A DNA stretch of 59,730 nt, filler included, from Stramenopiles sp. TOSAG23-6 (taxonomy: Eukaryota): NCBI GenBank assembly GCA_900128565.1. It is 12 parts of 12 records of this genome, joined end to end, with 100 filler letters (N's around TTAATTAATTAA, not from the genome) between each part and the next. Parts side by side here need not be neighbours in the genome. Positions count along the whole stretch, not along the records: positions 19,990 to 24,882 come from LT637023.1; 11 more parts are not named here. One strand, written 5' to 3'. The position numbers and the translations under genes are program-made. Below, in pieces: positions 13,256-48,135 of this stretch (the first letter of the stretch is position 1; every line of letters starts with the position of its first letter). Below the pieces are notes generated by a model. That model saw only the letters and a list, made by a program, of their open reading frames with translations, did no database searches and had not been told where the DNA came from.

Positions 13256-14830
13256 TCAAGTAGTCAGTTTTCTGTATTTCGTTTTTCGCCCTGATCGAAG
13301 CATTTTTATAACATTAAATTCATTACTATATCCATGCATAAGTATTGTGAAAAAATATTTTAAAGTAAAAAAAATGGTTAGGTATAAAATTTTCGATAAA
13401 AAAATAATTCGAAATTCAAATTTTGAAAACAAACAACATCACGTAAATCACCAAATACATCATAATTAAAATGTGTCACTCTTTCTGAAAATATCTCATT
13501 TGTTTCAAAAGTTTCACGTAATTTTTCACAATAATAATAAATAGATAATTCTGAGTTAATTCTACCAAATTGGTTGTTACTTCTAGCTATTATCTTCCCT
13601 GTCACATCCATGTATTTTGGAAAAATATTTCAAAAAAAATCGTTAGGTACGAAATTTCGTACGAAAAAAAAATCGACTTTGAAAAAAAATAAAACATCCA
13701 TATATGTAACTCCTGGAATCCTTGAAAAGACTGATAGAAATTCATTAATATTTAGAGGTAAAATCTGGACGTTTACATATTGAATTTTCATTTCTAAAGC
13801 AGCAACCGTTCTGTGATGACCATCGGCAATGTAGAAATCCCTAGTAATTATAATACGATCAAAATTATTATGAGGATTTGTAAAAAGATTAAACTCTGTA
13901 CTGCTTGCATTAGGGTTAGGGTCATCATTATGAGAAAAATGGTCTAAAGTATTTGAATAGTCCTGCTTTTTAAAATCTGATATTAATCTTTCAACACCAG
14001 TGCTTGAAACATCCTTCTGTATATATTTTAATAGCCCAACCCTAATTTTTGATAACTTAATGTCTCCATATTCTTTTTCGAATTTTTGTCTCAANGTAAA
14101 GTTCGTCAAGATATCACTAGGTTGCGGCATAAATCTTCTTGATAATTTTGGAGTTTGCGGCATAAATCTTCTTGATAATTTTGGAGTTTGGAGTTTTGAT
14201 GTTTGATCTGTGAAGTTTAACAAATTACTCAGAAAATTTCTTGGGTCATTTTCATCGTATTCTTCAGCTTCATCTTCGTTTGCATCAAATTGATTAGAGT
14301 TCAGTTTAGGAAATGTGAAAAGAAATGGCATGTAATGTGAAAAACATTTAAAAAAAAAATCGTTAGGTACGAAATTTGGTACAAAAACTTTTTTGAAATT
14401 CAATTTTGAAAGCATACATATACACTCCTATAAAACTACCTACAACAGAACTAATTGTTAAAACTGTAGATAAAAATAAAACTCCACGTTTTCGTTGATT
14501 TTCTCTTTTTGTCACTTGATTTTGATTTAGATATTGAAATATATTGTGAAAAAATATTTCAAAAATTCGAAATTCGTCAGGTACAAAATTTCATTGTCAA
14601 AAAACAAATAAATTTCAAATTCATAATGAAAACGTACATATTTGATTTCTAATACTCATAACTGTTTTCAAAAATGCATTCCTTACGTTTAAATTATTCT
14701 GTACATCAGTGCTTTTATTATTCTGAAACAATGTTAATTGCACAGTTTTCATATTCTTTCGGAATATTTCGTTATCCCATTCTACTGTAAAAGGAATCTC
14801 CTGCAATCCTATAAAGTTCCTTGTACCACC
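13256..14830 (-). CDS. Multi-exon protein with TM segment and ParB/sulfiredoxin-like motif (exons ~14830-14638, 14538-14418, 14329-13700, 13609-13435, 13339-13256; 5' truncated)
   Basis: One continuous frame after removing four family introns; IIITRDFYIADGHHRTVAA. Confidence 0.65.
13340..13434 (-). mobile_element. Family intron GT...TT, 95 nt, TT duplicated
   Basis: GTT|GTTTG ... TACCTAAC ... CACAATACTT|ATG. Confidence 0.7.
13610..13699 (-). mobile_element. Family intron, 90 nt, GG...AT in family register
   Basis: AT|GGATG ... TTCGTACGAAATTTCGTACCTAAC ... AAATACAT|G; ATGGATGT direct repeat makes the borders slide. Confidence 0.7.
14330..14417 (-). mobile_element. Family intron GT...AT, 88 nt, AT duplicated
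   Basis: TAT AT|GTATG ... CACATTACAT|G CCA gives GVYMPFLF. Confidence 0.75.
14539..14637 (-). mobile_element. Family intron GT...AT, 99 nt, branch variant CCTGAC
   Basis: ATA T|GTACG ... CACAATATAT|TT CAA gives RNQIFQYL. Confidence 0.75.
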
Positions 14831-14995: not shown

Positions 14996-15053
14996 CGAAA
15001 TTTTGTACCTAACAATTTTTTTTTTTTTTTTGAAATATTTTTCCAAAATACAT
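14996..15053 (+). mobile_element. 3' part of family intron, ends ATAC-AT
   Basis: CGAAATTTTGTACCTAAC ... TATTTTTCCAAAATACAT. Confidence 0.7.
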
Positions 15054-16453: not shown

Positions 16454-19400
16454 ATGAAAGACGCCGAAAGAGTAAAACGTCAGCTGCAACGTCGTGCGAT
16501 GGTTGATTCAAATAGAACACGTATAAACGAAGTCCAATTGTTTCTAGATGAGGCCAAAAGAAAAGACGAGATGCATACTACAGAGATTGCTGATCTCAAG
16601 AGAAAACATCGCGTGGAAGTTGCATTTCTCCAACAAACGATTAATAAGCTTAAAGATATAATTAAAACTCACAATATAAGTTCAAATCTAAAAAATTCTT
16701 CTGATGAACCAATACTAAACTTTGCTGCAGCAATGAATCGGCACTTACTTGTCGATTCACAACAGATGAATGATAATATTGCAATGAAATTGACGGCGGC
16801 ACAAGCTAAACATGCAGACTTTCTAGTTTTTCATGAAAAATCGCATAGAGAAAAAGATAACGCACATCGATTTGAGCTTGCAAAGTGTGACATTAGACAC
16901 AAAGCAGAAATTCAACAGTTAAAAGAAGACATAAGTTTAGATCATCAGAGAGCTTTAGAAGATATGGCTGAACATCATAATTTAGAAATACAGAAAGTTG
17001 AAAACGCGCTAGCTCTGGCAAATCTTACTGGGTCACATCATGAAAAGGTGGCTAAACTCGAAAAAGAGCAAAATTTAAGTAAGAAACTTGCTATAGAAAA
17101 AATGGTTGAAAAGCACAGCAATGAAATTTCAGTTGCTGAACAAGATATGCATATTTTAAAAGAAAAATATGAAAATAAAAGAATAGAATGTGATAATCAT
17201 AGATTACGATATTCAGCATTAATGGACGAAAAAGGAGTGCATGTACGTTTTCATCATGAATTTCGAATTTATTTTCTTTTTCATACGACATTTTGTACCT
17301 AACAAATTTCGAATTTGACATATTTTTTCAAAATACATGCAATCGCACTAAAGGAAATAAGTGAAAAATATTCGAACGCTTTAGATAATCTTGTCAAGAC
17401 TCACGAAAAGGAATTGGCAGACACAATAGAAGAATTGAAAAATCAGCACGATCGAAAGATGAAACTGGCAAATATTAAAATGAATGAAATGAATGTTAGT
17501 ATGAATATACTTAGAACGGATATTGTTTCAACAAGTGATACACATGAGGTAATAGTGAAAGAAATGACCGATAAATACGCGAATGAATTAAAGATGCTGG
17601 CGGAAAGTCATCAAGGGGATAAAGAAGAAGCACTCCAGGAACTTCAAAAACGACATAATGATGAAATAAAAACAGCCGAAAACAAATTAAATGATATGAA
17701 AACAAAATACTCTGATTTTGTTGCGCATCATGAAATTTCCCAAACCAAAAAAAAAGCTATACATGAAGCTGCATTAAATGAACTAAGTTTGCAACACAAA
17801 TCTGAAATGAAACGACTCATAAAAGCAGAAGATGGAAATCGAAAGAATGCACTAGAAGACTTAGCAAGTGAACATAATTCAGAGATACGTCAAATGGAAA
17901 GAAAACTTTTAGAAAAGACAAAGGCTCACGATGCGAAAGAACGAGCAAATGAAATAGCAGCAGCTTCGATTTTATCTGATCATAAATATAAAATTTTAGA
18001 GTTGGAAGAAAAACATCAAAATGAATTAAATTACCATAAAAAATTAAGTAATGATAAAAATGAAGAGTTACTTTTGCTGAGGAAGAAACATAAAATGGCT
18101 TCAGATGCACATGAAGAATCCCTAAACGAATTATCTAATAAGTACAAAACCGAATTAAATGCTCTGACAGAAAGTCACCATGGTGATAAATTAGATGCTT
18201 TAGAAGAACTACGAAATCGCCATGCTGAGGAACTCCGACTATCAGAAAATGAATTAAGTAAATTTAAGACAGAATATGCTAATTTTGTTTCACACCTTGA
18301 ATTGTCACACAAGGAAAAGGATGATATTCATAACACTGCTCTAGAAAATATCGCTGCCAAACATGAAACAGAAATGAAGCGCTGTTTAGAAGAATTCGAT
18401 GGCAATAGAAAAGTTGCAATGCAAAATTTGGCACAAAAACACCAATCAGAATTATTTAGTTTACAGACAAAAATTTCAGAGCACGAAGAAGAAAAAAAAG
18501 CCACTGTAAAGGCGCATGAACTTGCTTTATCAAGACTTGCAAATGATTATGAGAGTGAGCTTGCTGAATTACAAAGAGAGCACTCTAATAGTAAAACAGA
18601 AGCTCTTGAAATACTTGCCAAAAAACATAGCGCGGAACTTGCGATATCTGAGAAAAACATTTCCCATTGGAAACAAAGCTATGATGAAATGACGGAAAAA
18701 TATAAAAGAGATCTCAATGAACTTGGGAATGACCATGAAAAAACACTAAAAGATTTACATACCCAACATACAGAGAAAATCAAAGTACATCATGATAAAA
18801 TGAAGAATTTGGAATTGAGACATGCTAATATAATGGAAAAAAAAATACAAGAAAAAAGTATAATACATGAAAAGGCGATAGCGAAAATGGCAAACGAACA
18901 TAAATTAGAGATGCAACGATACTTGAAAGAAGCTGACAACAATAAAAATATTGCACTTGATAATTTAGCTCGACATCACAAAGACGAAATCGAGCGATGG
19001 GAAAAAGAGCTTCTTGAAGATTCTGGTACACCAATAAAATACTGGCAAAACAAATACTATAATATGGAGCAAAAACACAAAGAGCAAACTAATGAAAATT
19101 TAAAATTAAATGGAACACTGCAACACCAGAAAAAGAAGTTGATAGTTAAACAAAGGAGTTTAGAGGAGCAACAAGAAGCATTAATGAAATTAGAATCTTC
19201 ATACAAAATTTATGAACGCGACTTCAATAAATCTCTTGAAGATAGAGATGCCGCACTTGAGCATGCTGAAAAGGAACATTTAAATACCAAAACGGAGCAT
19301 GCGAAAACATTGAAACAACTTAAATTAGATCATGAAGACAATATTGCAAAGCTAAAAGAAGAGCACACATACTTAAAAGAAAAGGCATTGAATCTGATGT

Positions 19401-19989: not shown

Positions 19990-21018
19990 TTCAATAAAGC
20001 AGAAGCACGAGGGGATCTCAAACCTGGTAGCGTAGTTGTTGCAGCGTCATCAGGAAATACTGGAGCTGCAACTGCTATGTTGGCTGCAATGCGTGGATAC
20101 CACGCAATCATAACGACATCACCGAAGTGCAGCAAAGAAAAGATGGCTGCGATAAAAGCATACGGTGCCGAACTTTTGATAAGTAATCCAGGTTTAACGG
20201 CGTCTGATTCAGGGCATTACATGAATCATGCTAATACAATTGTTAATACTGAAAATAATAAAATACGCGAAAATAAAACGAAAAACAAAACGTTTTGGTT
20301 CAACGTGAGTCAGTATGACAATCCAAATAATCCTGAGGCACATGCGACTACTTTGGGTCCTGAAATATGGAAACAAACATGTGCAGCAAACATTCCAGTG
20401 ACACATTTTGTTGCTGCAGGGAGTACTGGGGGGACAATTTCTGGCACAAGTTCTTTTTTGAAGCAAAAGGATCCTTCCATCTTGACTACATTAGCTGACC
20501 CTGTGGGATCTATTTTTACAGAGCACTTTATGAAGCTTAAAAAACAAAAATATTCTAGTGATTCAAGTAAGAATGATAGCAACACTGACGTATGTTATTA
20601 TCAATTCATTCCAATTTCGAATTTTTGTTTTTTTTACCAAATTTTGTACCTAACAAAAAAATAAAATTTTACGTATTGTTTTACTATACATAATGATGAG
20701 AAGGTTAAACGCCAGAAGTTTTTAGTTGAAGGTGTTGGAAAAACTGTTATACCTGGTTGTATAAATTTTGATGTTATAGATGATGTACTACCAATCGATG
20801 ATTCTGAGGCTTTTAAAATGTGTCACAAATTATCATCTGAGATGGGAATTTTGGTGGGTGGCTCATCCGGTTTAAATGTAGCAGCTGCATTGCGTATTGC
20901 AAATAGACAAGAGGGACCTGCAACAATTGTCACAATCTTATGCGATTCTGGTGTGAAATATTTATCCAAGATTTATGATGACACGTGGCTTCGTGAGAAC
21001 AATCTTCCTTCTTTATAG
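19990..21018 (+). CDS. Cysteine synthase / cystathionine beta-synthase family PLP enzyme (exons <19990-20589, 20692-21018)
   Basis: SSGNTG, QYDNPNN, GSTGGT, EGVG, GGSSG, TILCDSGVKYLSK. Confidence 0.9.
20590..20691 (+). mobile_element. Family intron GT...AT, 102 nt
   Basis: GAC|GTATG ... TTTTGTACCTAAC ... CTATACAT|AAT; internal stop; restores the frame to EGVG. Confidence 0.7.
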
Positions 21019-21133
21019 AAATGGTGTATTCAGCCATTATTAAATTATCAGTGAATAGCAACATAGGAATAAAATAATTTCACCTAAACATATTGAGTTC
21101 TATAATGATTTATTTTATTTTTGAAAAACATAA

Positions 21134-22066: not shown

Positions 22067-22404
22067 TTTACTGCAAATGTACCACAAAATATAGGTGAAT
22101 TCTTCTCTTCTGGAGGATGATGAATAGTGGTGGTGAATATGATTAGCCCTAACGTTTAAACTCGATGTGACCCGGGCCCGGGGATGGCCAACAAAAATTG
22201 ACACAACAACAACACAAAAATCAAATCAAAACATTCCAGGTCTTATAGATAACGCTAACAAATTATTTTGTATGTTACATGTGGCTGATCTGCTATATAC
22301 GGACAGTGTAAATAAAATAAATACTAGCTATCTATATCTAGAAATTATTATTTCTATTATTCAAAGATCAATATTCTTCAAAGCAACAACTATTATTTTA
22401 TTAT

Positions 22405-24586
22405 TCAAAGATCAATATTCTTCAAAGCAGCAACTTCTGCAGCTCTTTTTTTAGCCCGCTTGAGAGCACTCAACTTCTTCTTCTTTTTCTTTTTCCGTTT
22501 TGGTTGTCCGTTTGAAATGTTTTTTTTCAACAAATCCCAATTTGATTTCGGAATTCCGGATTTTTTTCTATTACTGCTATCCGTTTTATTTTTTTTCATT
22601 GTCGCAGACTTCTTGATTGGTGTACCACATGCAACACCCATAATATTATTCTCTATTCTTACTATACCATCTTGAAGTGTTGCCGGAGGTTCTACAGGAG
22701 GTGGTGAAGTTCTTTCAGGTAAGGGCCAACCAAATAATGGATATGCTAAAGCTTCTAGTTGCGACATTCGAACCCCTTTTTGTTTTTGAAATACATGTAG
22801 TAATGCAGATCTTGCTCGAGAATTCACTTTTAGCTCATCTGCAGTTGGGCGCGACACATCTTCCATTACATATCCCCATGTATTGTGAAAAACATGTCAA
22901 ATTTGAAATCTATTAGGTACAGAATTTAGTACGAAAAAAAACCATTAAAATGAATGATGAAAACGTACATGCTTTAGGTATCTTTCTGGACTGCATTATT
23001 TCTTTTGCTCCATTTGCTAATAAAAGAGTTTCACCTTGTAATTTTGGTACAAAATGTTTTTCAGGTGCTTTTAATTCACCAGTGTTGCTACTCACAGAAT
23101 CATCATTTTTAAAAGTGATACATTCTGGTAATAATGATTCATCATTATTTTTGAGAGCTTTCTGAGCTGATTGATACCAACTTAATAAAGGATTTTCCTG
23201 TCTTGCATTTTCTAACCAACGAAAGTAATCAACAACAATGTTACATTCAGAATGCTTCCATGTAATAATACCAACTTTCCCTCCTTCTCGCATTACTTTC
23301 AAAGCTGAAACCAAACCACGTTTTAGTTCATCAAACTCCCGATTAATATGAATTCGAAGAGCCTGGAAAGTCATTTTTGCGGAATGCATCGCTTGGTATT
23401 CTTTGCCTTTTGCTGCCACAACCAAAGCAGCAAATTCACGAGTACGTTTTGGAAGACCTCCTGGCCATAGGCCTTCACGTGCCATAAGGATAGCATCTGC
23501 AATACGTCTAGAGGCTTGAATATTTTCACCACCGTAATCCACAATGATTTGAATCAATTTTTCACGAGTGCAGGTTTGAAGCCAATCCCAAGCAGATAAG
23601 CCATGATCTTGATCGAAACGTAAATCTAGAGGACCATCCATCTCTGGTCGAAATCCTCTGCCACCATGTACTGTGAAAAAATATTTCTAAAAAATTCGTT
23701 AGGCATATAACTACTATAAAACTAAATAAATTTGAAATTAATGATGACAATGTACATCCAACTGAGGTGATGATATTCCGATATCAAGTAGAACTCCTGC
23801 AGGCTGAACACCAAGTGTGCCAAGTTCCTCAGCCATATCACCGAACCAACGTTGATGAATCGTAAAACGAGAATCTTCTTCCATAAGTTTTTTACCTACA
23901 GCAATGGCTTCATCATCAACGTCAAAAGCATGTAATCGACCTTTAGGTGAAAGCTTCTCCAAAATTGCTCGGCTATGTCCGCCTCTACCAAATGTACCAT
24001 CAACGTATATACCATCCGGATTATGAATTAGTCTTTTCAGAACTTCTGCTAGTAGGGCAGGTGTATGGGTACCTTCAGCCTGCATTGTACCTGTTGTAGT
24101 TGCACGTGTCACTGATATATTGCGATTTCCAAAGCGAGATAAATCTTTTGCTAGTGCCTTGCGCATACCTTCAGCAGTCTCGAATGTAACAAATCCACGA
24201 ATGACGTTTCCTGTTGTATTATTATACATTAAACGGACTTCTCCTGCAATTGGACCACACTTACTGAAGAACTCATATACTTCACCTTGGGTACACTTTG
24301 GAGGTAAGTACTTGATGTATATTTCTAAACCTGCATGAGTTTTTTCGGCGACAGATAATGGTACACTTTGAGCTGCACCACCACGAGTGACTTCACGAGT
24401 TGTCCAGTGACTTTTACTCTGTCTACTTGAAAAACTACCAGAAACTCCACCTCTACCACGACCACGTCCTCGACCTCTACCTCGTCCAGAACTTCGGCCT
24501 GATTTGCCACGACCCCATTTACTTTTCGATGCTCCAATCCATGCTTCAGATGCCTTACGCTTTACCCCTGCCACCGATGGCGACAT
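22405..24586 (-). CDS. rsmH: RsmH/METTL15-family rRNA m4C methyltransferase with N-terminal RG-rich tract and RRM (exons 24586-23756, 23665-22969, 22877-22405)
   Basis: HTPALL, DGTFGRGGHS, DIGISSPQLD/GGRGF, DGPLDLRF, TFQALRIHINRE, NSRARSA; RRM RGFVTF. Confidence 0.9.
22878..22968 (-). mobile_element. Family intron GT...AT, 91 nt, AT duplicated
   Basis: GCA T|GTACG ... CACAATACAT|GG GGA gives PKAWGYVM. Confidence 0.75.
23666..23755 (-). mobile_element. Family intron GT...AT, 90 nt, AT duplicated
   Basis: GAT|GTACA ... CCTAAC ... CACAGTACAT|GGT restores SSPQLDGGRGF. Confidence 0.8.
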
Positions 24587-24813
24587 ATTATATTCTCTAT
24601 AGAATTATATTTTCTATATAATAATAACGAAACTTGACTTGATGCTATTGTATACTACTACGATGATCGATGCGCTGACTCGGTGTTACCGGGTATCATG
24701 CATGTCATTTCGAAGGCCACGCGCTGTTCTTGTCATCAATTGGCCATTCGTTCTTTCTTTTACTTCTTTGGGTACCGTCAAAAAATTCTCTTTTTCCAAT
24801 GCATTCATATCCG

Positions 24814-24882
24814 ATGAAAGCAGTTTTTCTTTTTCTCCTTGCAGTTGCGAATGTCGCTGTCACTGAAGGAGTTTTATCCACT
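24814..24882 (+). CDS. 5' end of a gene for a probable secreted protein (truncated)
   Basis: MKAVFLFLLAVANVAVTEG signal-peptide-like, divergent from rsmH. Confidence 0.45.
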
Positions 24883-24982: not shown

Positions 24983-25046
24983 AAAATCGTTAGGTACAAA
25001 ATTTCGTATGAAAAAAAATTAAATTAGAAATTCATATAAAACGTAC
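24983..25046 (-). mobile_element. 5' part of family intron
   Basis: AT|GTACGTTTT ... CATACGAAATTTTGTACCTAACG; cut by contig start. Confidence 0.7.
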
Positions 25047-27713: not shown

Positions 27714-29874
27714 TCATACACCTTGTAAATTGTTTTGCAACTGATTTAAACCAGGTACACTAATTGACGCATTCATAAACCTCGGAGGTCGTCCTTCAAC
27801 CAAGACTTGTACTATGATTGGGTAAACACGAGGTTGTAATGCTTCACTCTTTGTTTGAGTTATCGTAACAATATTATTGACTGGATGTTTTTGTGATGTT
27901 TCATTTATTGTTTGAGTTATCTGAACAACACCATTGACTGGATCTTTTTGAGCTGCTTTTTTATTATATTGCACTTGTTGATGATTTTGTTTGTAGTCAT
28001 TGTTGTTCTGTTTTTGTTTTAGTTGCTGCGGTTGATCATGTTGCCTTTGTTGTTGTTCCAGTTGTTGTAGTTGTTGCAGTTGTTGTTGCAGCTGTTTTTG
28101 TTGTTGTTGCAGTTGTTGTTCTTGTCGTTTTACTTTACGCGCTAAACAATATTGTTTATTTTGTTCTGTTCGTTTCTGTCTTAACTTCAAATCTGTTGTA
28201 CTTGATATTGAAGTAGAGGCATCTAAGGATTCATCCGTCGTTCCCACGGGATCTAAAAGGATGAGAAAATCAAAGCCGACTGGTTCTTTTTTTGTTTTTC
28301 GTCGAATTTTAACATTTATCGAATCATTATAATTTGAAAAGCGAAGAGGACATCCAAGTATTGTGGAAAAACATTTCAAATTAGAAATTCATTAGGTACA
28401 AAATTTTCTTAGTAAAAAAATAAATCTGAAATTTAATTGGAAAATTTTGGTAGAAAATTCATAAAAAGAAAAAATCACAAACTTAGTATCTTCAGATTTC
28501 GTGTAGAATACGTACAAGCTCCTTTGCCATTTGTTCTTGAACAACTCGAGAAATTCTTTTCGTACATGTTCGTGCTTTATACTTCATACGTAAAGCAAAG
28601 AATTTTACTGCAATGTTCCAAAGAGTATCATCAGATGTTAGTTTGCATGTGTTGTGAAAAAGTCAAATTTTGATATTCATTAGGTACGAAATTTCGTAGG
28701 AAAAAAAAATAAATTTGAAATTCATTATGAAAATATACATTCCGGCCATAAATTTAAGAAGACTTCGGGCGGTTTACCAATTTCATCATCTTCATCACTT
28801 GAAAATAATTTTACATTATTGGCAGTGCCAAGTATTGTGAAAAAATATTTCAACAAAAATCTAAAAAAAAATGTTAGGTACGAAATTTCGTATGAAAAAA
28901 AAATTAAATTAGAAATTCATATAAAACGTACAACGCCATGACTTGTTACTGTATCAGTATCAGCAACTAGAAGATGTTGACTTGATAAAATAAAGTTTCT
29001 TCGGAGCTCTTTAGGGTTAGGGTTTTCATTACTTGTAAATATATCGCGTTTTGCAGCTTTATCACTTGTTTTATTACTTGTTTTATTACTTGTAAATCTT
29101 GGAAGAATAACTAATATTTGCTGACTTATCCACTGTTTAAATTGTTCTAATGAATTTTTACTTAATTTCAACTTTGCTTCTAATAAAATGCGTACTTTTC
29201 TTGGCTACATTATATAGAAATATGTCACACAAAATAAGTAGTACGTATTAGGTATGGAATTTTCATCGTTTATAAAAATATCTAATTGATGAAACAAAAA
29301 AAAAACTTTTAGGTACAAAATTTTCTATGAAAAACAAAATTACATTTTTTTTTGTTAGGTACAAAATTAACTACAAAAAAAAAAAAAAACCTACAGTCAT
29401 TTTGTTCATATCTGCATTTCTAAGAATATTTGATATTTCATGAACAATTTGTTGAGCTGTGAAACCAAACGTAGAAAAATCAGGTCTATTTGTTGTGTCA
29501 ATTTCCATGCTAGGGTTAGGGTTTTCATCGATTTTTTGTTCATCACTATTTTCATTTGTTGTGTCAATTTCCATGCTAGGGTTAGGGTTTTCATCGATTT
29601 TTACATCATCACTTTCATTCGTTTTATCAACCTTTTTTGTAGGGTTAGGGAATTTTACATCATCATTTTCATTCGTTGTATCAATCTTTTTTGTAGGGGA
29701 CAAGATCGTGTTTTTTTTTGTACCAAATTCATTTGAAAAAATTATTTTACGATTGTTTTTGATCATGTGACCTTTCTTTTCTATTTCTAGTGTTTCATTT
29801 TGTTTTTGAGGTATTTCAACAACATTATTGATTAATTGTTTTTCTAGTGTTTCAGTTGTTTTTTGAGGTATCTC
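27714..29874 (-). CDS. Multi-exon protein with DEK-C-like domain and poly-Q tail (exons to 29395, 29204-28932, 28829-28739, 28646-28516, 28355-27714; 5' truncated)
   Basis: ISNILRNADMNKMT/PRKVRILLEAKL; one continuous frame after removing four introns. Confidence 0.65.
28356..28515 (-). mobile_element. Family intron GT...TT, 160 nt, TT duplicated
   Basis: CTT|GTACG ... TTTTGTACCTAAT ... CACAATACTT|GGA. Confidence 0.7.
28647..28738 (-). mobile_element. Family intron GT...AT, 92 nt, AT duplicated
   Basis: GAA T|GTATA ... CACAACACAT|GC AAA. Confidence 0.7.
28830..28931 (-). mobile_element. Family intron GT...TT, 102 nt, TT duplicated
   Basis: GTT|GTACG ... TTCGTACCTAAC ... CACAATACTT|GGC. Confidence 0.75.
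29205..29394 (-). mobile_element. GT-AG intron (190 nt) carrying three copies of the family core motif
   Basis: ACT|GTAGG ... 3x TACCTAA ... ATGTAG|CCA restores KMTPRKVR. Confidence 0.65.
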
Positions 29875-30103: not shown

Positions 30104-31607
30104 AATCCAACGAGGGTCGAGTTTTTCTTTATGTAATCGAATCATTGACGTATGATCATATGCTGTATTTCTCATATAATTATTTGATTCCAAATATTTA
30201 AACATTTTTTTTAATCCATCTGAAGATTTTGCCATTTCTACTATATTGTGAAAAATATTTTTTTTTTTTTTGAAAATTTTTGAAAATGTTTTATTTTTTT
30301 ATGTTAGGTACAAAATTTCGTACGAAAAAAAAAACAATTTGTAAAAAAAAAAAAAATGTACATGCACGAGTTAAAATTTGTGTTCGAGTGATTCGCATTT
30401 CGTGTCGTAATCGAACACTTGATCGACGACGGACATTTTGTCTAGGGTTAGGGTTTTTTGTAGGGTTAGGGTTTTGTGTCACATTTTGTATATTATTCAT
30501 ATTTGTATTGTTTTTGTTATTTACAATATTATTTTCAATAGTATTGTTATTTTTGTCGATTTCATTTTGTTTAGATGAAAACTCAAACAAATATTTTTGT
30601 TTTGGTATTGAGGACGTAAATGTTGGATTAGGGTTAGGGTTTTGTGTGAATGTTGAATACTCAACATCTTTAATGTTATCATCATCGTGATCATATATTT
30701 TGAAAAAATATTTCAAAAAAAAAAAAAAAAAAATTTTAGGTACAAAATTTCGTACGAAAACCAAAAAAAAAAAAAAAAAAAATGTTAGGTACAAAATTTC
30801 GTACGAAAACCAAAAAAAAAAAATTCTAAAAAAAAACATTAAAATAAAACGTACTCGTGCTAATCCAAAATCGCATATTTTTAGAGTACAATCTTCATTC
30901 AAAAGAATATTTGCTGGTTTTAAATCACGATGTATGCAACGTCTAGAATGAATGTATGATACTCCACAAAGTAATTGATAACAAAAGCTTTGTACGTGTG
31001 GTAGTGTGAGAAATTGAGGTGATAGAATTAGTTTGTACAAATCCGTATCCAAAAATTCAAAGACAATATACAAATCTTTAAACGTTTCTCTTTTGGGTGG
31101 AAGGATTATATCAACTAATTTACATACATGTTTGCTTCTCATTCGTCGGAGAATAAAAATTTCTCTATAGACACGTAACGCATCAAGTTGGTCTTGAACA
31201 ATATCTGGCATTCTTTTTATGGCTACACGAGCTCCCGTTTTTCGATCTACTGCTTCTCCTACCTCACCATAGGATCCCCGACCTAAGAGTTTAACAATAT
31301 TGTACCGACGTCCAACGATCCAGTGTGAGAACTCACTGACTGGTTGAAAAGGAATTGTATAAGAAGAACTCCCAGCAGAGCTTGGAGGGGAGTTTTCTAC
31401 ATGAGTCTTTTTTTGTTTTTTGTTGAAAACTTGTCTTGGTGATACAGAGTTTGCACTATCAGGACCGGACACATCCGTTAAAAGTGGCGTTTGCTTCTTA
31501 GATGACACCTTACGACGTTGCTGGGGTTGTATCGCATCATCTTCAGTCCAAGCTACGTTTTTACTGCGTTTCCTTCGTCTTGCTTTTACAACGGATGGTG
31601 CTGACAT
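30104..31607 (-). CDS. MAP kinase (CMGC), N-terminal part (exons 31607-30855, 30692-30362, 30240-30104; truncated)
   Basis: GRGSYGEV, VAIK, REIFILR, HRDLKPANILLNEDCTLKICDFGLAR. Confidence 0.9.
30241..30361 (-). mobile_element. Family intron GT...AG, 121 nt (AG in the family register)
   Basis: GCA T|GTACA ... CACAATATAG|TA GAA gives TRALEM. Confidence 0.75.
30693..30854 (-). mobile_element. Family intron GT...AT, 162 nt, two core copies, in frame
   Basis: CGA|GTACG ... AAAATATAT|GAT; would otherwise read as poly-Phe right after DFGLAR. Confidence 0.75.
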
Positions 31608-34964: not shown

Positions 34965-37900
34965 AAAATCTTCGGAAAAAATTGCTTACAGATTTACAAC
35001 CAAAGATGATTCGTGGTAGCGCTGTTACTGGTTCTGGTTTCATAACACTATTGCGTTCTTATGTTAATGCGATAAATAATGGTGGGGTTCCAGTTGTTGA
35101 TTCTGCGTGGGTGTCTTTAATGCGCCGTGAGTGTGATTTAGCAATGTCAATGTCGACTGAAATTCATGAGGAAAATATAAAGAGGGCAAACTCAAATTTA
35201 CCGGTTGATGGAGTAGTATTAATGGAATTAGAGGGGAAAGATACTAATATTGTCTTGCAAGCGTTTGATCAAAGAGTAGGTACAAAGAGTGCTTTAAGTA
35301 AGGAGAAACGTATAGAATTGCAAAATACAATTTCTTCTTCGTGGAATGAAGTGAATAATTCTAATAAAAAAATCTCTGAGATAGAATGCGATTCAATCCT
35401 ACGGAGATGTTTTTCTTTGGAAATTGAAAAGAAGTTAGATACGAATGACACGAAATCTTCATTAGGAGAAGGTAAAGTAGGAGGTAAGTCAATTTTAGAA
35501 AGTAAAACAAAAGTACATTTAAATGGGGATACTATTTGGCATACGTATGATACTGCTGTCAAAAAATACATGACGAGTGCTGCTGGTCCAGCTAAGATGA
35601 AAATATTACAAAAAGTTGGCATTCAGAAGTTACGACATTTAGTTAATTCGCAAATTCGTGCTAATGTTTCAGTAGTAAGTGACTTACAGAGACAAATTCT
35701 AATAAATAAGTCTCGTATTAAAGATTATGAAATTGATATAGATGACTTTAAGAAAATGGCTGCTGTTGAAATAGAAAAGAGAGAAAGAATGGAGTCACAA
35801 TACAAATTACTCAAAACAAAAAATCGAGAAGATGACACCCGAATTAATAAATTTGTTGGCATGATTGCAGAAAAGGATAAGAAGGAAATCTCGCAGAAAA
35901 CAGAAATTTCTTTTCTTAAAAACAAAGTGAAAAAATATGAAGATATAATTGCAAAATGTAAATCAAAAACGGAAATGAATAATGATACAATTACAAAATT
36001 GAAAGCAACTGCAGAAGCGAATGATGCTAAGAGGCTAACTGAAGCAGAAAATAAAAGAATAGAAATCGAAAATTATAAGAAAGAAATTGAACTTTGGAAA
36101 GTAAAATGTGCAGAAATGGCAAAAGAGAAATCTTTGATGAAACTGAACATCAAAAAAACAAATGAAAAATGTGTACAATTAGAAAATGTTTTATCACAAA
36201 CAAAAAATACTCATAATGAAAAAAAACGACAATTAGAAAATCGATTGTTATTGTCGCGAGAAAGAATTGAAGCTTTGGAATCGAATTCTACTAGCAATGA
36301 TGATGCGTTCTTTGTAGCAGTACCAAAAACAGAACCAAAACGTCCCGCACGAAATACTGGCCCAAAGTCTTGGAAAAGGCAACAAAAGGAGAAACAACTT
36401 TCGAAGTCGATTACACCAGTGCCAACAGTAATGTCTTTGGTGAATGTTGAAGAAGATGGTTCATTTAGTGTTAATGAAGAGAGTGCCTCTATACTTTCTA
36501 AAATTAGCAAAAAAATTGCTATTGTAGTTGTGACTGGAATTTACCGATCTGGGAAATCGTTTCTAATGAACGCGTTACTAGGTGGTCATGTTGGTGGATC
36601 TAATGCATTTACTATTGGTCACTCGATAAAGTCATGTACCAAGGGTATTGTATGATTTATTTTTTTTCAAGTTTTTATATAATTGTGTTTTCGTACGAAA
36701 CTTTGTACCTAACAAATTTTACAAAAAAAATATTTTTTCACAATACTTTGGTGTTGTACGTCTCCAATAATTGTTGAAGATCAATTACGATTGCCAAAAG
36801 ATGTTTGTGTCATTCTACTAGATAGTGAAGGATTAGCTGCCGCTGGACAAGGCGAACGTGGACAAAACTATGATGATAAGATATTTACTTTAGCGATGCT
36901 TCTTGCCTCTAAAATTGTGTATAATGGAATGGGTACAATTACTGAAGCAAATATTCAACAATTAAGTTTTATTGGAAATATGTGCCGTAAAGTTGTTGAA
37001 AATAGCAAATTAGTACAATTTCCTTCATTCACGTGGGTTCTTAGAGATTTTTCATTGGCACTGCGCGATGCTTCTGGACATGATATATCTCCGACAGAAT
37101 ATATGGAAGAAACACTACGCAGTAAAGATGAAGTTGATGAAATCACAAAATCTCGTAATAAAGTTTGTGGAATGTTGAAAACGTTTTTTCCGGAAAGGGA
37201 CTGTGTCACTTTAGTACGACCTGCAGAAGATGAAAATGTATTACAAGATATTCAATCAAATTTAGATAAACTCCGTCCAGAGTTCATTGCTCAAGTCGAA
37301 AATCTTCGGAAAAAATTGCTTACAGATTTACAACCAAAGATGATTCGTGGTAGTGCTGTTACTGGTCCAGGATTCATATCACTTTTACGTTCTTATGTTA
37401 ATGCGATAAATAATGGTGCAGTACCAAGTGTACAAGGAGCATGGGAAAATGCATTACGACATCAGTGTTCCGACGCAATGGATGCAGCAACAGATTCGTT
37501 CAAGAAGGCCACTGAAGAGCTCAGTAAAGAATTTCCTGTGGATTCTGATGATTTGCCGGGTATGTTTAATACTTGTACTGTCGGATCTTTATCTTTGTTT
37601 GATCGTCGTGTTGGTACTAGAAATAAATCAACAGAAATTCATAGGAAAGAACTTATTAAAAATATGCAAGATTCTTGGAATGATTTGTTGCATCTTAATA
37701 AAAAAACGTCATTTAATGAGTGCGAAAAGATACTGAGAAAATATTTTGCAGAAGCTAAAATAGAAAACAAACTCCCTATCGAAGAATTTTGGGGGAAATA
37801 TTCAGAAGTAGTAAAAAAATATATGTCGGATGCTTTAGGTCCAGCTAAACTTGAAGTATTACAGTCTATAGGAACACAAAAACTTCAGAATATTTTTAAT

Positions 37901-41715: not shown

Positions 41716-43494
41716 ATGGAGTATATATCATCACGTCTACCCCTAGGTGAACCGATAATACCAGTTTCAATTGATAGTAATGGGTTCAAAGTACCAAAGA
41801 TACAAATATTCATGGATTTACGAAACCAACTTGAAGTTCTAAAGGAACAGATAAGAAAAAAAATGTTATTGGAAGGTACTCCTTTTCAACGAAATGGCCT
41901 CCGAATTTATTTTAATCATTCTACGTTCTGGAACACAGTAGAAAAACAAACGATAAGAGAATCATTGAATAAACTTACAAATAAAAGTATGCTGACATGC
42001 ATTTGTTCGAAAAAAATACCGGGCATCTCAATGACTAAAATGTCTGATATTCTGGGGCAAACAAACTGTGAATGTGCTGATGTAAATTCAAGTAATACAA
42101 CTAGTACACAATTAAATAATACAACTAGTACACAATTAAATAATACAACTAGTACACAACTAAATAATACAACTAGTACACAACTAAATTATACTGAAGC
42201 ATACAAGCCATATACAACATCTCTTAAAGTTCTCGGACAAATCGCTGAGCAACTTGATTATAATGCTGTACAAAGTGGTGAGAAGACCCAGGTTCTTTCA
42301 GTAGCAGGAAACCTCGCAACTGCGTTTAACACAACTACAGCATCAAATAAAACGTCTGTAGTAGGAAACTTCACACCTGCATCTAACACAACAAAACCAT
42401 CAAATGAAACATTACCATTAAACACACTAAACCAAACAACGGCAGCATTGGATAAAATGACGCCAACATCAAACAACATAACGTCAGCATTGGATAAAAT
42501 AATGCCAACACTTAACAAAACAACGTCAGCATTAAGTGAAATAATTCCAACACTGAATAATACATCCTCATCACTAAATGACACATCATCATTCAATAGA
42601 ACAATGACAGCACTAAATAACACAACTTTATTCAATATGACAATGGCAGCGCTAAATGAAACCATGTCAGCCACAGCTTTATTCAATAAAACAATGTCAG
42701 CCACAGCTTTATTCAATAAAACATTGTCAACGCTGAATGAAACAGATTCTCAAACGATATCTCTTTATAATGAAACTTCGAAAGCAGCATCCATACTCAA
42801 CAAGTTATTGCCAGGAAAGGAATTGCCAATGCCTCAAGAAATTTTGAATAAAACATTATCTCAAGAAATTTTTCATAAAACATTATCAGCGCTGAATAAG
42901 ACGATACGATCTGCTAATACACTAGATGAAAAAAAATCGCAAGCCTCACTTCGTAAAACAATCTTGTCACTAGCAGCGCTTCATAAAATGGTTGATCATG
43001 ATGTACGTTTTCATTTCAATCTTGAAGTTTTTTTCGTACGAAATTTTGTACCTAACGATTCTTTTTTTAAATATTTTTTCATAATCAATGATCAATCCGT
43101 ATCAGAAAAGGATTCAAATAATTTCTCGGTTATTATGCAGTTTCCAGTTGAATATGATAAGACTGCTGTGTATACAGGCCTGTCGTCTTTTCTTCACAAC
43201 ACGTTTATTCATCGTGAAGAGAAATTACCACAAAATCAGTTCAGAAAAGAAAATGGTATTTTAAATGTCCTTGACGAAAATCCAGCAGAAAATCAAATAA
43301 AATACACCCCACAAGAAAATAATAACAATTACCTTCAGGCAACATTTCAGATTCCAGCAAATGCAAACGATACTCTAATAGAAAAGGAAAATGAAATGAA
43401 AAAGTTGGGAAACAGTGTACACTTCCCTGGAGAATTTGATAAATTTCGACCAATGATTACTGTATTAGATAAAAGGAACAGTACCAAATTTTAG
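41716..43494 (+). CDS. Thr/Asn/Ser-rich low-complexity protein (exons 41716-43002, 43090-43494); start uncertain
   Basis: Long ORF, NNTTSTQL repeats, many N-x-T/S sequons. Confidence 0.65.
   Translation: MEYISSRLPLGEPIIPVSIDSNGFKVPKIQIFMDLRNQLEVLKEQIRKKMLLEGTPFQRNGLRIYFNHSTFWNTVEKQTIRESLNKLTNKSMLTCICSKKIPGISMTKMSDILGQTNCECADVNSSNTTSTQLNNTTSTQLNNTTSTQLNNTTSTQLNYTEAYKPYTTSLKVLGQIAEQLDYNAVQSGEKTQVLSVAGNLATAFNTTTASNKTSVVGNFTPASNTTKPSNETLPLNTLNQTTAALDKMTPTSNNITSALDKIMPTLNKTTSALSEIIPTLNNTSSSLNDTSSFNRTMTALNNTTLFNMTMAALNETMSATALFNKTMSATALFNKTLSTLNETDSQTISLYNETSKAASILNKLLPGKELPMPQEILNKTLSQEIFHKTLSALNKTIRSANTLDEKKSQASLRKTILSLAALHKMVDHDVRFHFNLEVFFVRNFVPNDSFFKYFFIINDQSVSEKDSNNFSVIMQFPVEYDKTAVYTGLSSFLHNTFIHREEKLPQNQFRKENGILNVLDENPAENQIKYTPQENNNNYLQATFQIPANANDTLIEKENEMKKLGNSVHFPGEFDKFRPMITVLDKRNSTKF
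43003..43089 (+). mobile_element. Family intron GT...AT, 87 nt, AT duplicated, in frame
   Basis: GAT|GTACG ... TTTCGTACGAAATTTTGTACCTAACG ... TTTCATAATCAAT|GAT. Confidence 0.7.
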
Positions 43495-47575: not shown

Positions 47576-48135
47576 TGTAGTGCAATGTACTATACGATTA
47601 TACTAATTTATTCAACCCTTATATCAATGGTATGTGCAATATTTGTTTATACCAGAAAGTACACGTAGATAATCAGAATATTCCTTGTTCTGGTATCCAG
47701 CACAATAACTGTTAGTAGTACAGTCAAGAAAGACACACGGAAGACAAAGCTTCGCTGGCTTCATTATACGATGAGTAGAGGTTAAGCCAAGCAGGTTTGT
47801 GATTTTTTTTGACTAATCAAATGATCCTTGAATGGATGGCCATTGGTCTTCTTCGAGAATCTCTTTTGTGTTTGTGTCAAAATAAACAAGAGACATTTTT
47901 CACCACTAACTCGTAAGTAATTTCTCTTTAAGACTTAGATGCAATACCATTCACGTAGATACATTGTAAAGGATACAATACTCTTTGTATTTGAATTGGT
48001 TTGATTCTTTGCGTGTCTTTTTGTTTGTATCTGTGTAATATCTTATTCTTTTAACTTCAACATTATATGAAACACTCACTGTTCCTCATTTACACCTCTG
48101 TATACCACACTTTATAGAACGAAAAAAACTTTATA

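What the first reader, a model, noticed from the sequence alone, without database searches (positions are those of the whole stretch)
23666..23755. A perfect-looking CAG acceptor is apparently skipped in rsmH and UTP20
Seen: both this intron and 46695-46788 end TTTTTTCACAG-TACAT. Splicing at the CAG frameshifts the gene. Splicing 5 nt later gives SSPQLD-GGRGF (RsmH) and HDG-ISRLLFE (UTP20). Inference: the 3' site is chosen by position or by the terminal motif rather than by scanning to the first AG, which points to a changed step-2 mechanism.
Basis: partly seen in the sequence, partly recalled or inferred. Interest (0 to 1): 0.8.

Follow-up and report, generated by a model that had tools for sequence, protein, structure and literature searches.

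The report
Repeated introns that end without AG
The two introns belong to a much-copied, transposon-like intron family of an uncultured marine protist whose members seem to be cut out two bases past a fixed end motif, not at an AG, so the tempting CAG is a chance variant left unused.

Summary
Both introns lie on the minus strand, start GTAC(A/G)T and end TTTTTTCACAGTACAT. Cutting at the CAG from the GT donor breaks the frame; cutting 5 nt later restores it.

Relatives back the later cut. A related organism's uninterrupted RsmH reads SSPQLDGGRGF, exactly the predicted join. Three UTP20 homologues align without a gap across HDG|ISRLLFE.

The CAG is not special. The window is 12 short contigs joined by linkers, and the UTP20 contig occurs four times. 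It holds about 20 copies of one ~90-nt intron family:
- The consensus end is TTTTTTCACAATACAT, with no AG. Of 17 independent ends, 13 end AT and 4 end TT.
- Removing each copy from its first G (GT in 14 of 15) to 2 nt past ..ATAC restores the frame in 15 of 15.
- The last two intron bases repeat the last two exon bases in 12 of 16 (permutation P 0.006).

Best reading: introner-type spliceosomal introns with an ordinary donor, branch site and T-tract. Their 3' cut is set by position, behind a 2-nt target-site duplication.

No RNA contig bridged either junction, so splicing and any changed step 2 remain inferred. Closest known cases are Fritillaria, Amoebophrya and euglenid non-canonical introns. 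I rate it a new variant of a known kind.

The parts
23666..23755 (-). rsmH intron 1, the finding: family copy GTACAT...TTTTTTCACAGTACAT, 90 nt
   Evidence: nhmmer E 2.3e-12, model 1-95; frames 283 and 250 codons joined. The join QLD|GGRGF equals the relative P0114.
23671..23673 (-). the unused CAG; G at intron position -6, where the family consensus has A
   Evidence: Among 17 independent 3' ends this position is G in 2, A in 13 and T in 2.
46695..46788 (-). UTP20 intron: GTACGT...TTTTTTCACAGTACAT, 94 nt; exon end (TG) and intron end (AT) do not repeat
   Evidence: HDG|ISRLLFE aligns without a gap to P0123, P0124 and P0125.
51662..51755 (-). the same UTP20 intron on a duplicate contig (also 56629-56722, and 1766-1859 with Ns)
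   Evidence: pieces 11 and 12 are identical, piece 10 differs only in Ns, and piece 1 has 2 non-N mismatches over 4867 positions.
23756..24604 (-). rsmH exon: RRM plus the N-terminal part of the MraW/RsmH domain, ending SSPQLD
   Evidence: RRM_1 and Methyltransf_5, profile positions 3-108.
22969..23665 (-). rsmH exon starting GGRGF
   Evidence: Methyltransf_5, profile 111-261.
22878..22968 (-). rsmH intron 2: family copy ending CACAATACAT, with no AG
   Evidence: The join PKA|WGY matches the relatives P0005 (LPKNWGY, BLAST runs across the join) and P0037 (LPRGWGYSMEDVSR). W is kept in P0003, P0007, P0010 and P0012.
22408..22877 (-). rsmH last exon
44932..46694 (-). UTP20 exon downstream of the intron
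46789..47602 (-). UTP20 exon upstream of the intron
   Evidence: the alignment to P0123 runs through both exons.
36650..36748 (+). family copy in a GBP-like GTPase gene, ending ATACTT; the exon before it ends TT
30693..30854 (-). family copy with a doubled core in a MAP kinase gene, directly behind DFGLAR
30241..30361 (-). family copy whose last two bases at the family position are AG
17243..17338 (+). best-scoring family copy (CAT|GTACGT...CAAAATACAT|G)
   Evidence: (E 2e-18).
13340..14637 (-). four family copies in one gene: 13340-13434, 13610-13699, 14330-14417, 14539-14637
28647..28931 (-). two family copies: 28647-28738 and 28830-28931
20590..20691 (+). diverged family copy in a PLP-dependent (cysteine-synthase-like) gene
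43003..43089 (+). family copy ending CATAATCAAT

Best explanation
Both introns are copies of one short (~90 nt), highly repeated, transposon-like intron family (an 'introner') in the nuclear genome of an uncultured marine protist.

Each copy carries three ordinary-looking spliceosomal signals:
- a donor GTAYGT
- a branch-site-like (TAC)CTAAC
- a T-rich tract

Its 3' end is the fixed motif TTTTTYCA(C/A)AATAC followed by two more bases. Those two bases repeat the last two bases of the upstream exon, mostly AT, sometimes TT. This is what a 2-nt target-site duplication made at insertion would leave.

The unit removed is the element plus the downstream duplicate. So the 3' cut falls at a fixed distance behind the end motif, whatever the last dinucleotide is, and the coding sequence is restored exactly.

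In the rsmH and UTP20 copies an A-to-G variant at position -6 happens to spell TTTTTTCACAG. That CAG is not the productive acceptor.

Shown here: family membership, frame restoration, the direct repeat, absence of these introns in relatives, and joins that equal the relatives' sequence. Inferred: that removal is spliceosomal, and that the 3' site is measured from the end motif without needing AG.
For: Family:
- 22 sites match the 3' 16-mer within 3 mismatches, against 2.8 expected.
- nhmmer with a model built from 10 copies finds about 20 strong copies.
- Contigs of the assembly often break inside copies.
- 637 contig pieces from run X1 and 508 from X3 pile up on the element stretches of one 4.9-kb contig.

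Frame: removing each copy from its first base (GT in 14 of 15, GG at 13699) to 2 nt past ..ATAC joins the longest upstream and downstream frames in 15 of 15 complete window copies. All 15 lie in the sense orientation of their gene.

Ends: of 17 independent 3' ends, 13 are AT and 4 are TT, none AG. The next base is G in 13 of 17.

Exact joins:
- rsmH intron 1 gives SSPQLDGGRGF, identical to the uninterrupted relative P0114. BLAST needs 2 fewer gaps than with the TA..AG alternative.
- rsmH intron 2, which has no AG, gives PKA|WGY. This matches P0005 and P0037.
- UTP20 gives HDG|ISRLLFE, against EDGISNLVFE, REGIAMLTFE and LDGAARLFFA.

Donor position: in the two copies without a repeat that can be tested, shifting the boundaries by -1 or -2 destroys the conserved DG of UTP20 or the R of the kinase motif DFGLAR.

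Direct repeat: the exon-end dinucleotide equals the intron-end dinucleotide in 12 of 16 copies (permutation mean 8.06, P 0.006). All 3 TT ends pair with TT exons.

The boundary tracks the end motif, not the branch site. The branch-motif-to-end distance is 33-44 nt in 13 copies and 63 and 92 nt in two long copies.

The elements are in genomic DNA of a wild population. One metagenome contig from X3 spans 22400-24882 with both rsmH introns in place.
Against: No RNA evidence. The two metatranscriptome runs gave only short exon contigs, and none bridges 23666-23755. One RNA contig (20432-20594) even runs 5 nt into a family intron, so it may come from unspliced RNA or DNA. The UTP20 contig was never laid.

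A canonical in-frame alternative exists in both CAG copies: GT at +7 with the CAG in rsmH (adds VHLH), and GT at +4 with the CAG in UTP20 (adds TTC).

The UTP20 homologues are only about 30% identical.

The Pfam profile has 3 positions between the D of QLD and the R of RGF, while the proposed join gives 2. P0114 and P0016 also have 2.

The repeat count depends on one boundary choice. With the alternative GT at 13437 it is 11 of 16.

Terminal inverted repeats are only 3-4 nt (GTA..TAC), and RNAalifold predicted no consensus pairing, so the transposon class is unknown.

Restoring the frame by removing an insertion plus its duplication would also hold for an unspliced recent insertion.
Confidence: 0.65

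Rival explanations
1. Ordinary GT-AG splicing with a different donor. In the two CAG copies the spliceosome uses the CAG together with a downstream GT: GTAC|GTTTTC in UTP20, and GTACATT|GTCATC in rsmH. This leaves 9 or 12 extra nucleotides (3 or 4 extra residues) in the mRNA.
For: Both combinations are in frame and free of stops (local products ...HDGTTCISRLLFE and ...QLDVHLHGGRGF). TTTTTTCACAG is a textbook-looking acceptor. For any copy with GTACGT and CACAG, the pair +4/-5 always keeps the frame.
Against: The uninterrupted relative P0114 has no extra residues in QLDGGRGF. Three UTP20 homologues show no gap at DG|IS. The rsmH donor would be GTCATC, unlike the family's GTAYGT. Of 17 family ends, 15 have no AG at this position and none ends in AG. 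rsmH intron 2, which has none, still joins exactly as in the relatives. So removal without AG is needed in any case.
Confidence: 0.12
2. Same mature mRNA, but different true cut sites. Because of the 2-nt repeat the intron could equally be written AT..AC (both cuts 2 nt upstream), as in AT-AC introns, or TG..CA. The real chemistry may happen there.
For: For copies with a perfect repeat, such as rsmH, the products are identical, so no mRNA sequence can tell them apart. In that register the 3' end would be AC in most copies, and AT-AC termini are a known compatible pair (established knowledge; review text read in passages, PMC11282704).
Against: In that register the 5' end would vary (AT, TT, TG, GA, AC), while in the GT register it is GT in 14 of 15 copies. 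Where the repeat is imperfect, the shifted registers give HDC or HEC instead of the conserved DG in UTP20, and A-H instead of the R of DFGLAR in the kinase. The donor does not resemble the U12-type consensus (recalled), and the branch motif lies 33 nt or more from the end.
Confidence: 0.1
3. Removal that is not spliceosomal. It could work as proposed for euglenid nonconventional introns, with boundaries measured from an internal motif, pyrimidine|purine junctions, direct repeats at the borders and circular products. Or it could be DNA-level excision between the two TA dinucleotides, as for ciliate eliminated sequences.
For: Both junctions read T|G in most copies, and short direct repeats flank the intron, as described for euglenids (PMC11282704, passages). 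The Euglena code places the 3' cut 5-6 nt behind a C-H-G triplet and before a purine (PMC12501133, abstract), and CAG+5|G looks similar. TA-to-TA excision is also in frame in both genes.
Against: Positions +4 to +6 are CGT, CAT or TGT, not C-D-G, and they cannot pair with CAA or CAG at -8 to -6. RNAalifold predicted no consensus pairing. A strong GTAYGT donor, a CTAAC motif and a T-tract are present, which euglenid nonconventional introns lack. TA-to-TA excision adds VH, TC or CT, which the relatives lack. DNA contigs from a single-cell-sized run and from a later metagenome keep the elements.
Confidence: 0.08
4. The copies are unspliced insertions: dead or dying genes hit by a miniature transposon, or an assembly artefact.
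For: Removing an insertion plus its duplication restores the frame whether or not it is spliced. No spliced RNA was seen.
Against: All 15 of 15 copies are in sense orientation. There are up to four per gene, in conserved genes with long open exons. Seven of 15 lengths are not multiples of three, so read-through fails. The same two insertions sit in an independent metagenome contig nine years later at about 99% identity. The donor and branch signals are conserved across copies.
Confidence: 0.05

Closest known systems
Introner elements of Micromonas, Aureococcus and other, mostly aquatic, eukaryotes (Huff et al. 2016, recalled; Gozashti et al. 2022 seen only in the search listing; the 2025 paper PMC12130899 read in passages; review PMC11282704, passages)
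   Same: Many near-identical short copies inside genes, in sense orientation. A short target-site duplication at the borders. One splice site is carried by the element and the other lies in or beside the duplication. Positions are species-specific.
   Different: Described introners use GT/GC..AG, with the AG taken from the duplication or the element. Here the duplicated bases are AT or TT and no AG stands at the cut. Terminal inverted repeats are almost absent here (3-4 nt).
Non-canonical introns of the tunicate Fritillaria borealis (Henriet et al. 2019, known to me only through the review PMC11282704)
   Same: Transposon-derived introns whose 3' splice site is formed by the duplicated exon bases rather than by AG. 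They are reported to be removed by a U2-type spliceosome that tolerates them.
   Different: Fritillaria introns mostly begin AG and end AC or AT behind an exonic TAC. Here the 5' end is a canonical GTAYGT and only the 3' end is odd. The organism here is an AT-rich protist, not an animal, judging by its genes.
Introner elements among the non-canonical introns of Amoebophrya (PMC7789003, passages)
   Same: Marine protist; repeated introns with direct repeats of a few nt overlapping the exon/intron borders; non-GT-AG ends.
   Different: Amoebophrya elements have 8-20 nt inverted repeats that form hairpins and show no consensus end dinucleotides. This family has a conserved donor and end motif and no predicted hairpin.
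Nonconventional and 'intermediate' introns of euglenids and hemistasiid diplonemids (PMC4770533 abstract; PMC12501133 abstract; PMC12621601 abstract and passages)
   Same: Borders set by position rather than by GT-AG. Direct repeats at the junctions. Pyrimidine|purine at both junctions. Some have a GT 5' end only.
   Different: Those depend on a CAG/CTG (or G/C-rich) helix joining the ends and lack a pyrimidine tract. That helix is absent here, while a donor, a branch motif and a T-tract are present.
U12-type / AT-AC introns
   Same: If the boundaries are shifted by 2 nt, most copies read AT..AC.
   Different: There is no U12-type donor and no branch site close to the 3' end. The shifted register is contradicted at the UTP20 and kinase copies.

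Membership tests
Introner (transposon-derived, repeated spliceosomal intron) | Many similar copies spread over unrelated genes of one genome | tested here: met
   About 20 strong nhmmer hits on 9 different contigs. 22 sites match the end motif against 2.8 expected. Hundreds of contig pieces from X1 and X3 map on the element stretches.
Introner (transposon-derived, repeated spliceosomal intron) | Copies sit in coding sequence in sense orientation, and their removal restores the reading frame | tested here: met
   15 of 15 complete copies. Three joins were checked against homologues.
Introner (transposon-derived, repeated spliceosomal intron) | Target-site duplication at the borders | tested here: met
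   A 2-nt repeat in 12 of 16 copies (P 0.006 by permutation); 11 of 16 with the other boundary choice at 13434/13437. A trinucleotide repeat is not significant (4 of 16, P 0.23).
Introner (transposon-derived, repeated spliceosomal intron) | Terminal inverted repeats or another mark of a known transposon class | tested here: inconclusive
   Only GTA..TAC (3-4 nt) at the ends. There is an internal perfect palindrome GTACGAAATTTCGTAC. No transposase was found, and no own genome is held to look for one.
Introner (transposon-derived, repeated spliceosomal intron) | Positions not shared with related species (recent gain) | tested here: met
   The relatives' open frames run through both rsmH positions: P0114 at intron 1, and P0005 and P0037 at intron 2.
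Introner (transposon-derived, repeated spliceosomal intron) | Precise removal from mRNA by the spliceosome | not testable with these tools
Canonical U2-type GT-AG intron | AG as the last two intron bases at the productive junction | tested here: not met
   The productive junctions inferred from homologues end AT (rsmH 1 and 2, UTP20). None of the 17 family ends ends AG. One further copy (30241) ends AG at that position.
Canonical U2-type GT-AG intron | GT donor with an extended consensus, a branch-site motif and a pyrimidine tract | tested here: met
   GT in 14 of 15 copies (GG in one). A CTAA[CT] or CTGAC motif is found in all 15. A T-run precedes the end.
U12-type AT-AC intron | U12-type donor and a branch site close to the 3' end (consensus recalled) | tested here: not met
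   The donor region is (A/T)T|GTAYGT. The branch-like motif lies 33 nt or more from the end.
Euglenid nonconventional intron | C-D-G at +4..+6 pairing with C-H-G 5-6 nt before the 3' border, with a purine after the border (PMC12501133 abstract) | tested here: not met
   Positions +4..+6 are CGT, CAT or TGT, and -8..-6 are CAA or CAG, which are not complementary. RNAalifold predicted no pairs. Only the purine after the border fits (G in 13 of 17).
RsmH / MraW 16S rRNA m4C methyltransferase (host gene) | Pfam Methyltransf_5 domain with the SSPQLD..RGF motif | tested here: met
   profile 3-108 and 111-261 on the two exons; alignment.
UTP20 (host gene) | Homology to proteins carrying UTP20_N, UTP20 and UTP20_C domains | tested here: met
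   The exons themselves get no Pfam hit. They align over about 480 residues with P0123 (2e-69 pairwise) and with P0125, and both of those carry UTP20_N. The window covers only the N-terminal part.

The most novel reading that the evidence does not exclude
This protist removes thousands of recently gained introns with an ordinary donor, branch site and T-tract, yet performs the second cut at a site that lacks AG. The site is fixed by a ruler from the element's end motif, passes over AGs including a perfect TTTTTTCACAG, and ends on whatever two bases the insertion duplicated. That would be a natural, genome-wide case of AG-independent 3' splice-site choice by an otherwise conventional-looking spliceosome. 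It would imply altered 3'-site recognition, for example in U2AF-like or step-2 factors.
Probability: 0.35. Interest if true: 0.85.

Novelty: new variant of a known kind. Interest (0 to 1): 0.6.

Why it matters
How the spliceosome picks the 3' splice site, and how far it can drift from AG, is usually studied with mutants. This family offers many natural copies. Everything upstream looks canonical, the last two bases vary with the insertion site, and a perfect CAG 5 nt upstream appears to be ignored. If RNA confirms the joins, the family is a ready-made test set for position-based 3' site choice. It would also show how a transposon can spread as an intron without carrying or creating an AG.

It matters in practice too. 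Gene finders that insist on GT-AG will frameshift most genes of this organism. Surveys of introners that start from annotated introns would miss such families (method passage in PMC12130899).

Tried and rejected
RNA test:
- The look-up of sequencing runs gave two metatranscriptome runs with small shares (0.16 and 0.09).
- On contig 5 alone the RNA contigs covered only exon pieces. The listed joints came from cross-mapping between element copies and were also present in DNA runs. So there is no junction evidence either way.
- No cover over the intron in RNA is not counted as evidence.

Own genome: none is held.

More copies from public collections:
- The JGI metagenome scan for the core motif found only 2 loci. 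One (L002) is a complete copy with ACAT|GT...ACAT|G. The other has a degenerate end.
- One IMG/VR scan found nothing. The other gave 15 loci with no element by nhmmer, so they are chance matches.

Protein searches for UTP20 with the word-index tool found nothing at near or longer lengths. The full HMMER library gave 4 hits, one of them (P0122) an unrelated repeat protein.

Consensus RNA structure: RNAalifold predicted no pairs.

GBP gene as an exact test of the join:
- The loop after TKGI varies in length (Pfam positions 62-71 against 16 residues).
- PDB alignments do not reach the first exon-2 residue.
- That W follows TKGI in human GBPs is my recollection only, so this copy counts for frame alone.

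Organism: the Atlas look-up gave only a generic PLP-enzyme family, and Rfam and tRNA scans found nothing. The nearest named RsmH homologues are Symbiodinium pilosum (54%), Tisochrysis and Polarella, so the lineage stays open.

Considered and rejected:
- U12-type introns.
- The Euglena code.
- Ciliate-like TA-to-TA DNA excision. It is in frame but adds residues absent in relatives, and the genes read as long open frames under the standard code.

Earlier notes of this scan: none for this genome, sequence or topic.

Literature:
- Searches found no description of a GT..AT/TT introner family.
- The 2016 Current Biology paper on single-cell genomes of marine diplonemids, which predicted non-canonical introns without RNA (as summarised in PMC12621601), is not held. 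Supplements are closed.
- Either could bear on novelty. I have no evidence that the window comes from such an organism.
Full report
**What the window is**

The 59,730 bases are not one locus. They are 12 pieces of 4,867-4,899 nt, sorted by falling length. The pieces are joined by 100-nt linkers of 44 N, TTAATTAATTAA and 44 N. Pieces 11 and 12 are identical. Piece 10 differs from them only in Ns. Piece 1 is the same sequence sprinkled with 92 Ns, with 2 non-N mismatches over 4,867 positions. GC content is about 27-39%. The genes read as long open frames under the standard code.

DNA of contig 5 is held by two very small runs of 2015 labelled 'organism A', and by three seawater metagenomes of 2024. 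Two seawater metatranscriptome runs hold small shares of it. So this is a fragmentary assembly of an uncultured marine eukaryote. No whole genome is held for it.

**The observation**

Both introns are on the minus strand.
- rsmH: ...CCTCAGTTGGAT|GTACATTGTC...TTAGAAATATTTTTTCACAGTACAT|GGTGGCAGAGGATTT, window 23755 down to 23666, 90 nt.
- UTP20: ...GTACACGATG|GTACGTTTTC...AAATATTTTTTCACAGTACAT|GTATTTCACGA, 46788 down to 46695, 94 nt.

From the GT donor, the CAG leaves 5 extra bases and shifts the frame. The cut 5 nt later joins open frames of 283 and 250 codons in rsmH, and 271 and 587 codons in UTP20.

The gene names hold. Pfam Methyltransf_5 covers profile positions 3-108 on the upstream exon and 111-261 on the downstream exon, with an RRM domain in front. 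The second gene has no Pfam hit of its own. However, it aligns over about 480 residues with P0123 and with P0125, and both of those carry UTP20_N.

The other three exact copies of the 16-mer (1766 with an N, 51662, 56629) are the duplicated UTP20 contig. There are therefore two independent CAG copies, not five.

**What the introns are**

The 16-mer is the end of a repeated element.
- With up to 3 mismatches it matches 22 sites, against 2.8 expected.
- The 120 nt upstream of these sites align with each other.
- The consensus is (A/T)T|GTACGTTTTCAT..AATTTC.AATTTATTTTTTTTCGTACGAAATTT(T/C)GTACCTAAC..T-rich..GAAATATTTTTTCACAATACAT|G.
- A profile built from ten copies finds about 20 strong copies on nine different contigs.
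- Several contigs begin or end inside a copy (14838-14895, 14996-15053, 24983-25035, 34811-34864, 44763-44829), as expected when an assembler breaks at repeats.
- When public contigs were laid on contig 5, 637 pieces from X1 and 508 from X3 mapped, mostly at 90-95% likeness and piled on the element stretches. The tool warns that this is not a copy number, but the family is clearly very abundant.

Of the 22 hits, I set aside 3 duplicates and 2 hits that are internal to elements (5605 and 13672). That leaves 17 independent 3' ends.
- At the position that makes the CAG: G in 2, A in 13, T in 2.
- Last two bases: AT in 13, TT in 4, AG in none.
- Following base: G in 13, T in 3, A in 1.

The 'perfect CAG' is thus a variant of a consensus CACAATAC that contains no AG.

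**Where the cut must be**

I call the unit from the first G of the copy (GT in 14 of 15, GG at 13699) to 2 nt past ..ATAC 'rule A'. After I corrected several boundary slips made, rule A joins the longest upstream and downstream open frames in 15 of 15 complete copies. All 15 are in the sense orientation of their gene. Seven of the 15 lengths are not multiples of three, so read-through is not an option.

Frame alone cannot separate rule A from boundaries that differ by 3n. One such case is TA..(C)A(A/G), with the donor moved +1 and the acceptor moved -5, which I call rule B. Homologues can separate them.

*rsmH intron 1.* P0114 is a 297-residue open frame from a related organism. It is 71% identical over 262 aligned residues and has the same RRM-RsmH fusion. 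It reads ...LLDIGISSPQLDGGRGFRPEMDGPLDLRFD... with no interruption, exactly the rule A join. Rule B adds VH and costs two more gaps in BLAST. The Pfam profile has three positions between the D and the R. Both P0114 and P0016 have two.

*rsmH intron 2* (22968 to 22878, ending CACAATACAT, no AG). Rule A gives ...RKIPKA|WGYVMEDVSRP. The relative P0005 reads NKLPKNWGY, and BLAST runs through the join. Under rule B the alignment stops before the join. P0037 reads RRLPRGWGYSMEDVSR. The W is kept in P0003, P0007, P0010 and P0012.

*UTP20.* Rule A gives ...NNPDVHDG|ISRLLFETVKN. This aligns without a gap to P0124 (...FMEDGISNLVFETLRN), P0123 (...DLREGIAMLTFETIKN) and P0125 (...HVLDGAARLFFAIMKN).

UTP20 is also the informative copy for the register of the cut, because its exon end (TG) and its intron end (AT) differ. 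Moving both cuts by -1 or -2 gives HDC or HEC and loses the conserved DG. Rule B inserts TC.

*MAP-kinase copy* (30854 to 30693). This one also lacks the repeat. The GT register keeps ...ICDFGLAR, as in the best PDB matches. The -2 register would replace the R.

*GBP-like copy* (36650-36748, ending ATACTT). It is in frame, but the loop there varies in length and the PDB alignments do not reach the join. I count it for frame only.

In short, four comparisons place the 5' cut before GT. Three of them also place the 3' cut two bases past ..TAC.

**The direct repeat**

The last two exon bases equal the last two intron bases in 12 of 16 copies: the 15 window copies plus L002 from a metagenome. The permutation mean is 8.06 and P is 0.006. 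All three TT intron ends follow TT exon ends. A trinucleotide repeat is not significant (4 of 16).

One boundary choice matters. With the GT at 13437 instead of 13434, the count is 11 of 16.

A 2-nt repeat flanking an inserted element is what a target-site duplication looks like. The relatives' genes lack both rsmH introns and have other introns elsewhere, since their frames end at different points. That fits recent, lineage-specific gain.

The repeat also makes the boundaries ambiguous in most copies: GT..AT, TG..CA and AT..AC give the same mRNA. RNA-seq on such copies could never fix the register. Only the imperfect copies can.

**How it most likely works**

Each copy carries three features that match the textbook U2-type signals:
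- a GTAYGT donor
- a CTAAC-like motif, found in all 15
- a T-run

So I take removal to be spliceosomal. This is an inference.

The 3' boundary does not follow the branch motif at a fixed distance. The distance is 33-44 nt in 13 copies, and 63 and 92 nt in two long ones. The boundary always lies 8 nt behind TTCA of the end motif. AGs between the branch motif and the end are passed over in 4 of 15 copies, and rsmH has two of them. RNAalifold predicted no consensus pairing. The only end-to-end pairing is the short palindrome ATGTA/TACAT, which TT-type copies lack.

My best account is therefore a position-based, AG-independent choice of the 3' site, measured from the end motif and landing behind the duplicated dinucleotide. 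This removes the element plus one duplicate and restores the gene exactly. How the machinery does this is not shown. It could be a U2AF-like reader of TTTTTYCAMAATAC, relaxed step-2 proofreading, or something else.

**What speaks against it**

There is no RNA proof. The metatranscriptome contigs cover only exon pieces: 20432-20594, 20931-21081, 22459-22724, 23131-23281 and 24311-24650. One of them runs 5 nt into a family intron, so it may be unspliced RNA or DNA. All listed joints are cross-mappings between element copies that also occur in DNA runs.

Both CAG copies do have an in-frame GT..CAG alternative: +7/-5 in rsmH, adding VHLH, and +4/-5 in UTP20, adding TTC. The homologue comparisons argue against these, but the UTP20 homologues are distant.

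**Comparison with what is known**

The closest kinds, with what I actually saw of each paper:
- Introner elements: short repeated introns with target-site duplications that supply one splice site, so far described with GT/GC-AG ends (review PMC11282704, passages; PMC12130899, passages).
- Fritillaria borealis introns: transposon-derived, mostly AG-AC and AG-AT, with the 3' site formed from a duplicated exonic TAC (same review).
- Amoebophrya introner elements: 3-5 nt direct repeats and 8-20 nt inverted repeats, with no consensus ends (PMC7789003, passages).
- Euglenid and hemistasiid nonconventional introns: borders are set by a helix-based ruler (PMC12501133 and PMC4770533, abstracts; PMC12621601, abstract and passages).

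This family shares the logic of the first two. It fails the defining helix of the euglenid code and the U12 signals. It differs from all of them in combining a fully conventional 5' half with a non-AG, duplication-derived 3' end.

My five literature searches found no description of such a family. The 2016 paper on single-cell genomes of marine diplonemids is not held, and supplements are closed. I do not know the organism. The nearest named RsmH homologues are dinoflagellate and haptophyte proteins, at 52-54% identity.

**Verdict**

The claim of a changed step-2 mechanism is open. The better frame is a transposon-derived intron family with a position-defined, AG-less 3' end: a new variant of a known kind, worth an RNA test.

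Noticed in passing
window 4900-4999 and every ~4,990 nt thereafter: The window is 12 contigs of 4,867-4,899 nt joined by linkers of 44 N, TTAATTAATTAA and 44 N. Contigs 10, 11 and 12 are the same sequence, and contig 1 is that sequence again with 92 single Ns.
   Followed up: yes
window 14838-14895, 14996-15053, 24983-25035, 29999-30032, 34811-34864, 44763-44829: Contig ends fall inside copies of the intron family, so the assembly seems to break at this repeat. Gene models from this assembly will often be cut at introns.
   Followed up: partly
window 30693-30854 (-): The intron behind DFGLAR of a MAP kinase carries the family core (TTTTCGTACGAAATTTTGTACCTAA) twice in tandem. It is 162 nt long and open in frame, so the stop-to-stop ORF reads straight through it.
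   Followed up: partly
family core, e.g. window 28877-28892 and 46733-46749: Many copies contain a perfect 16-nt palindrome, GTACGAAATTTCGTAC, just before the CTAAC motif. nhmmer also finds it on the opposite strand. Its role is unknown.
   Followed up: no
window 13610-13699 (-): This copy lacks the GTACGT start. At the family position it begins GG. An 8-nt direct repeat ATGGATGT flanks it, so a GT 4 nt further in gives the same product.
   Followed up: partly
window 30241-30361 (-): One family copy ends ...CACAATATAG, which puts AG at the family's usual cut position while the exon before it ends AT. It may be a copy that has drifted to a canonical acceptor.
   Followed up: no
window 22408-24604 (-): RsmH is fused to an N-terminal Gly/Arg-rich region and an RRM domain. 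The same RRM-RsmH architecture occurs in P0011, P0013 and P0114 from other public contigs.
   Followed up: partly
window 30420-30690 (-): The MAP kinase has a long Asn-rich insert behind DFGLAR. It includes AACCCTAACCCTAA-like stretches that encode NPNPNP and look like telomere repeats at the DNA level.
   Followed up: no
window 34967-39847 (+): A very long GBP-like gene. A GBP C-terminal helical domain is followed by a second GBP GTPase domain and another C-terminal domain, as if two units were in tandem.
   Followed up: no
window 6155-9298 (-) and 39950-41416 (-): A 1,048-residue open frame made of DUF4116 repeats (E 4e-125) and a BspA-type leucine-rich-repeat protein (E 2e-148). Both are without family introns.
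   Followed up: no
L002 2475-2578 (metagenome contig): A complete family copy in a public marine metagenome contig, with a 4-nt repeat ACAT|GTATGT...CACAATACAT|GG. L001 holds a copy with a degenerate 3' end.
   Followed up: partly
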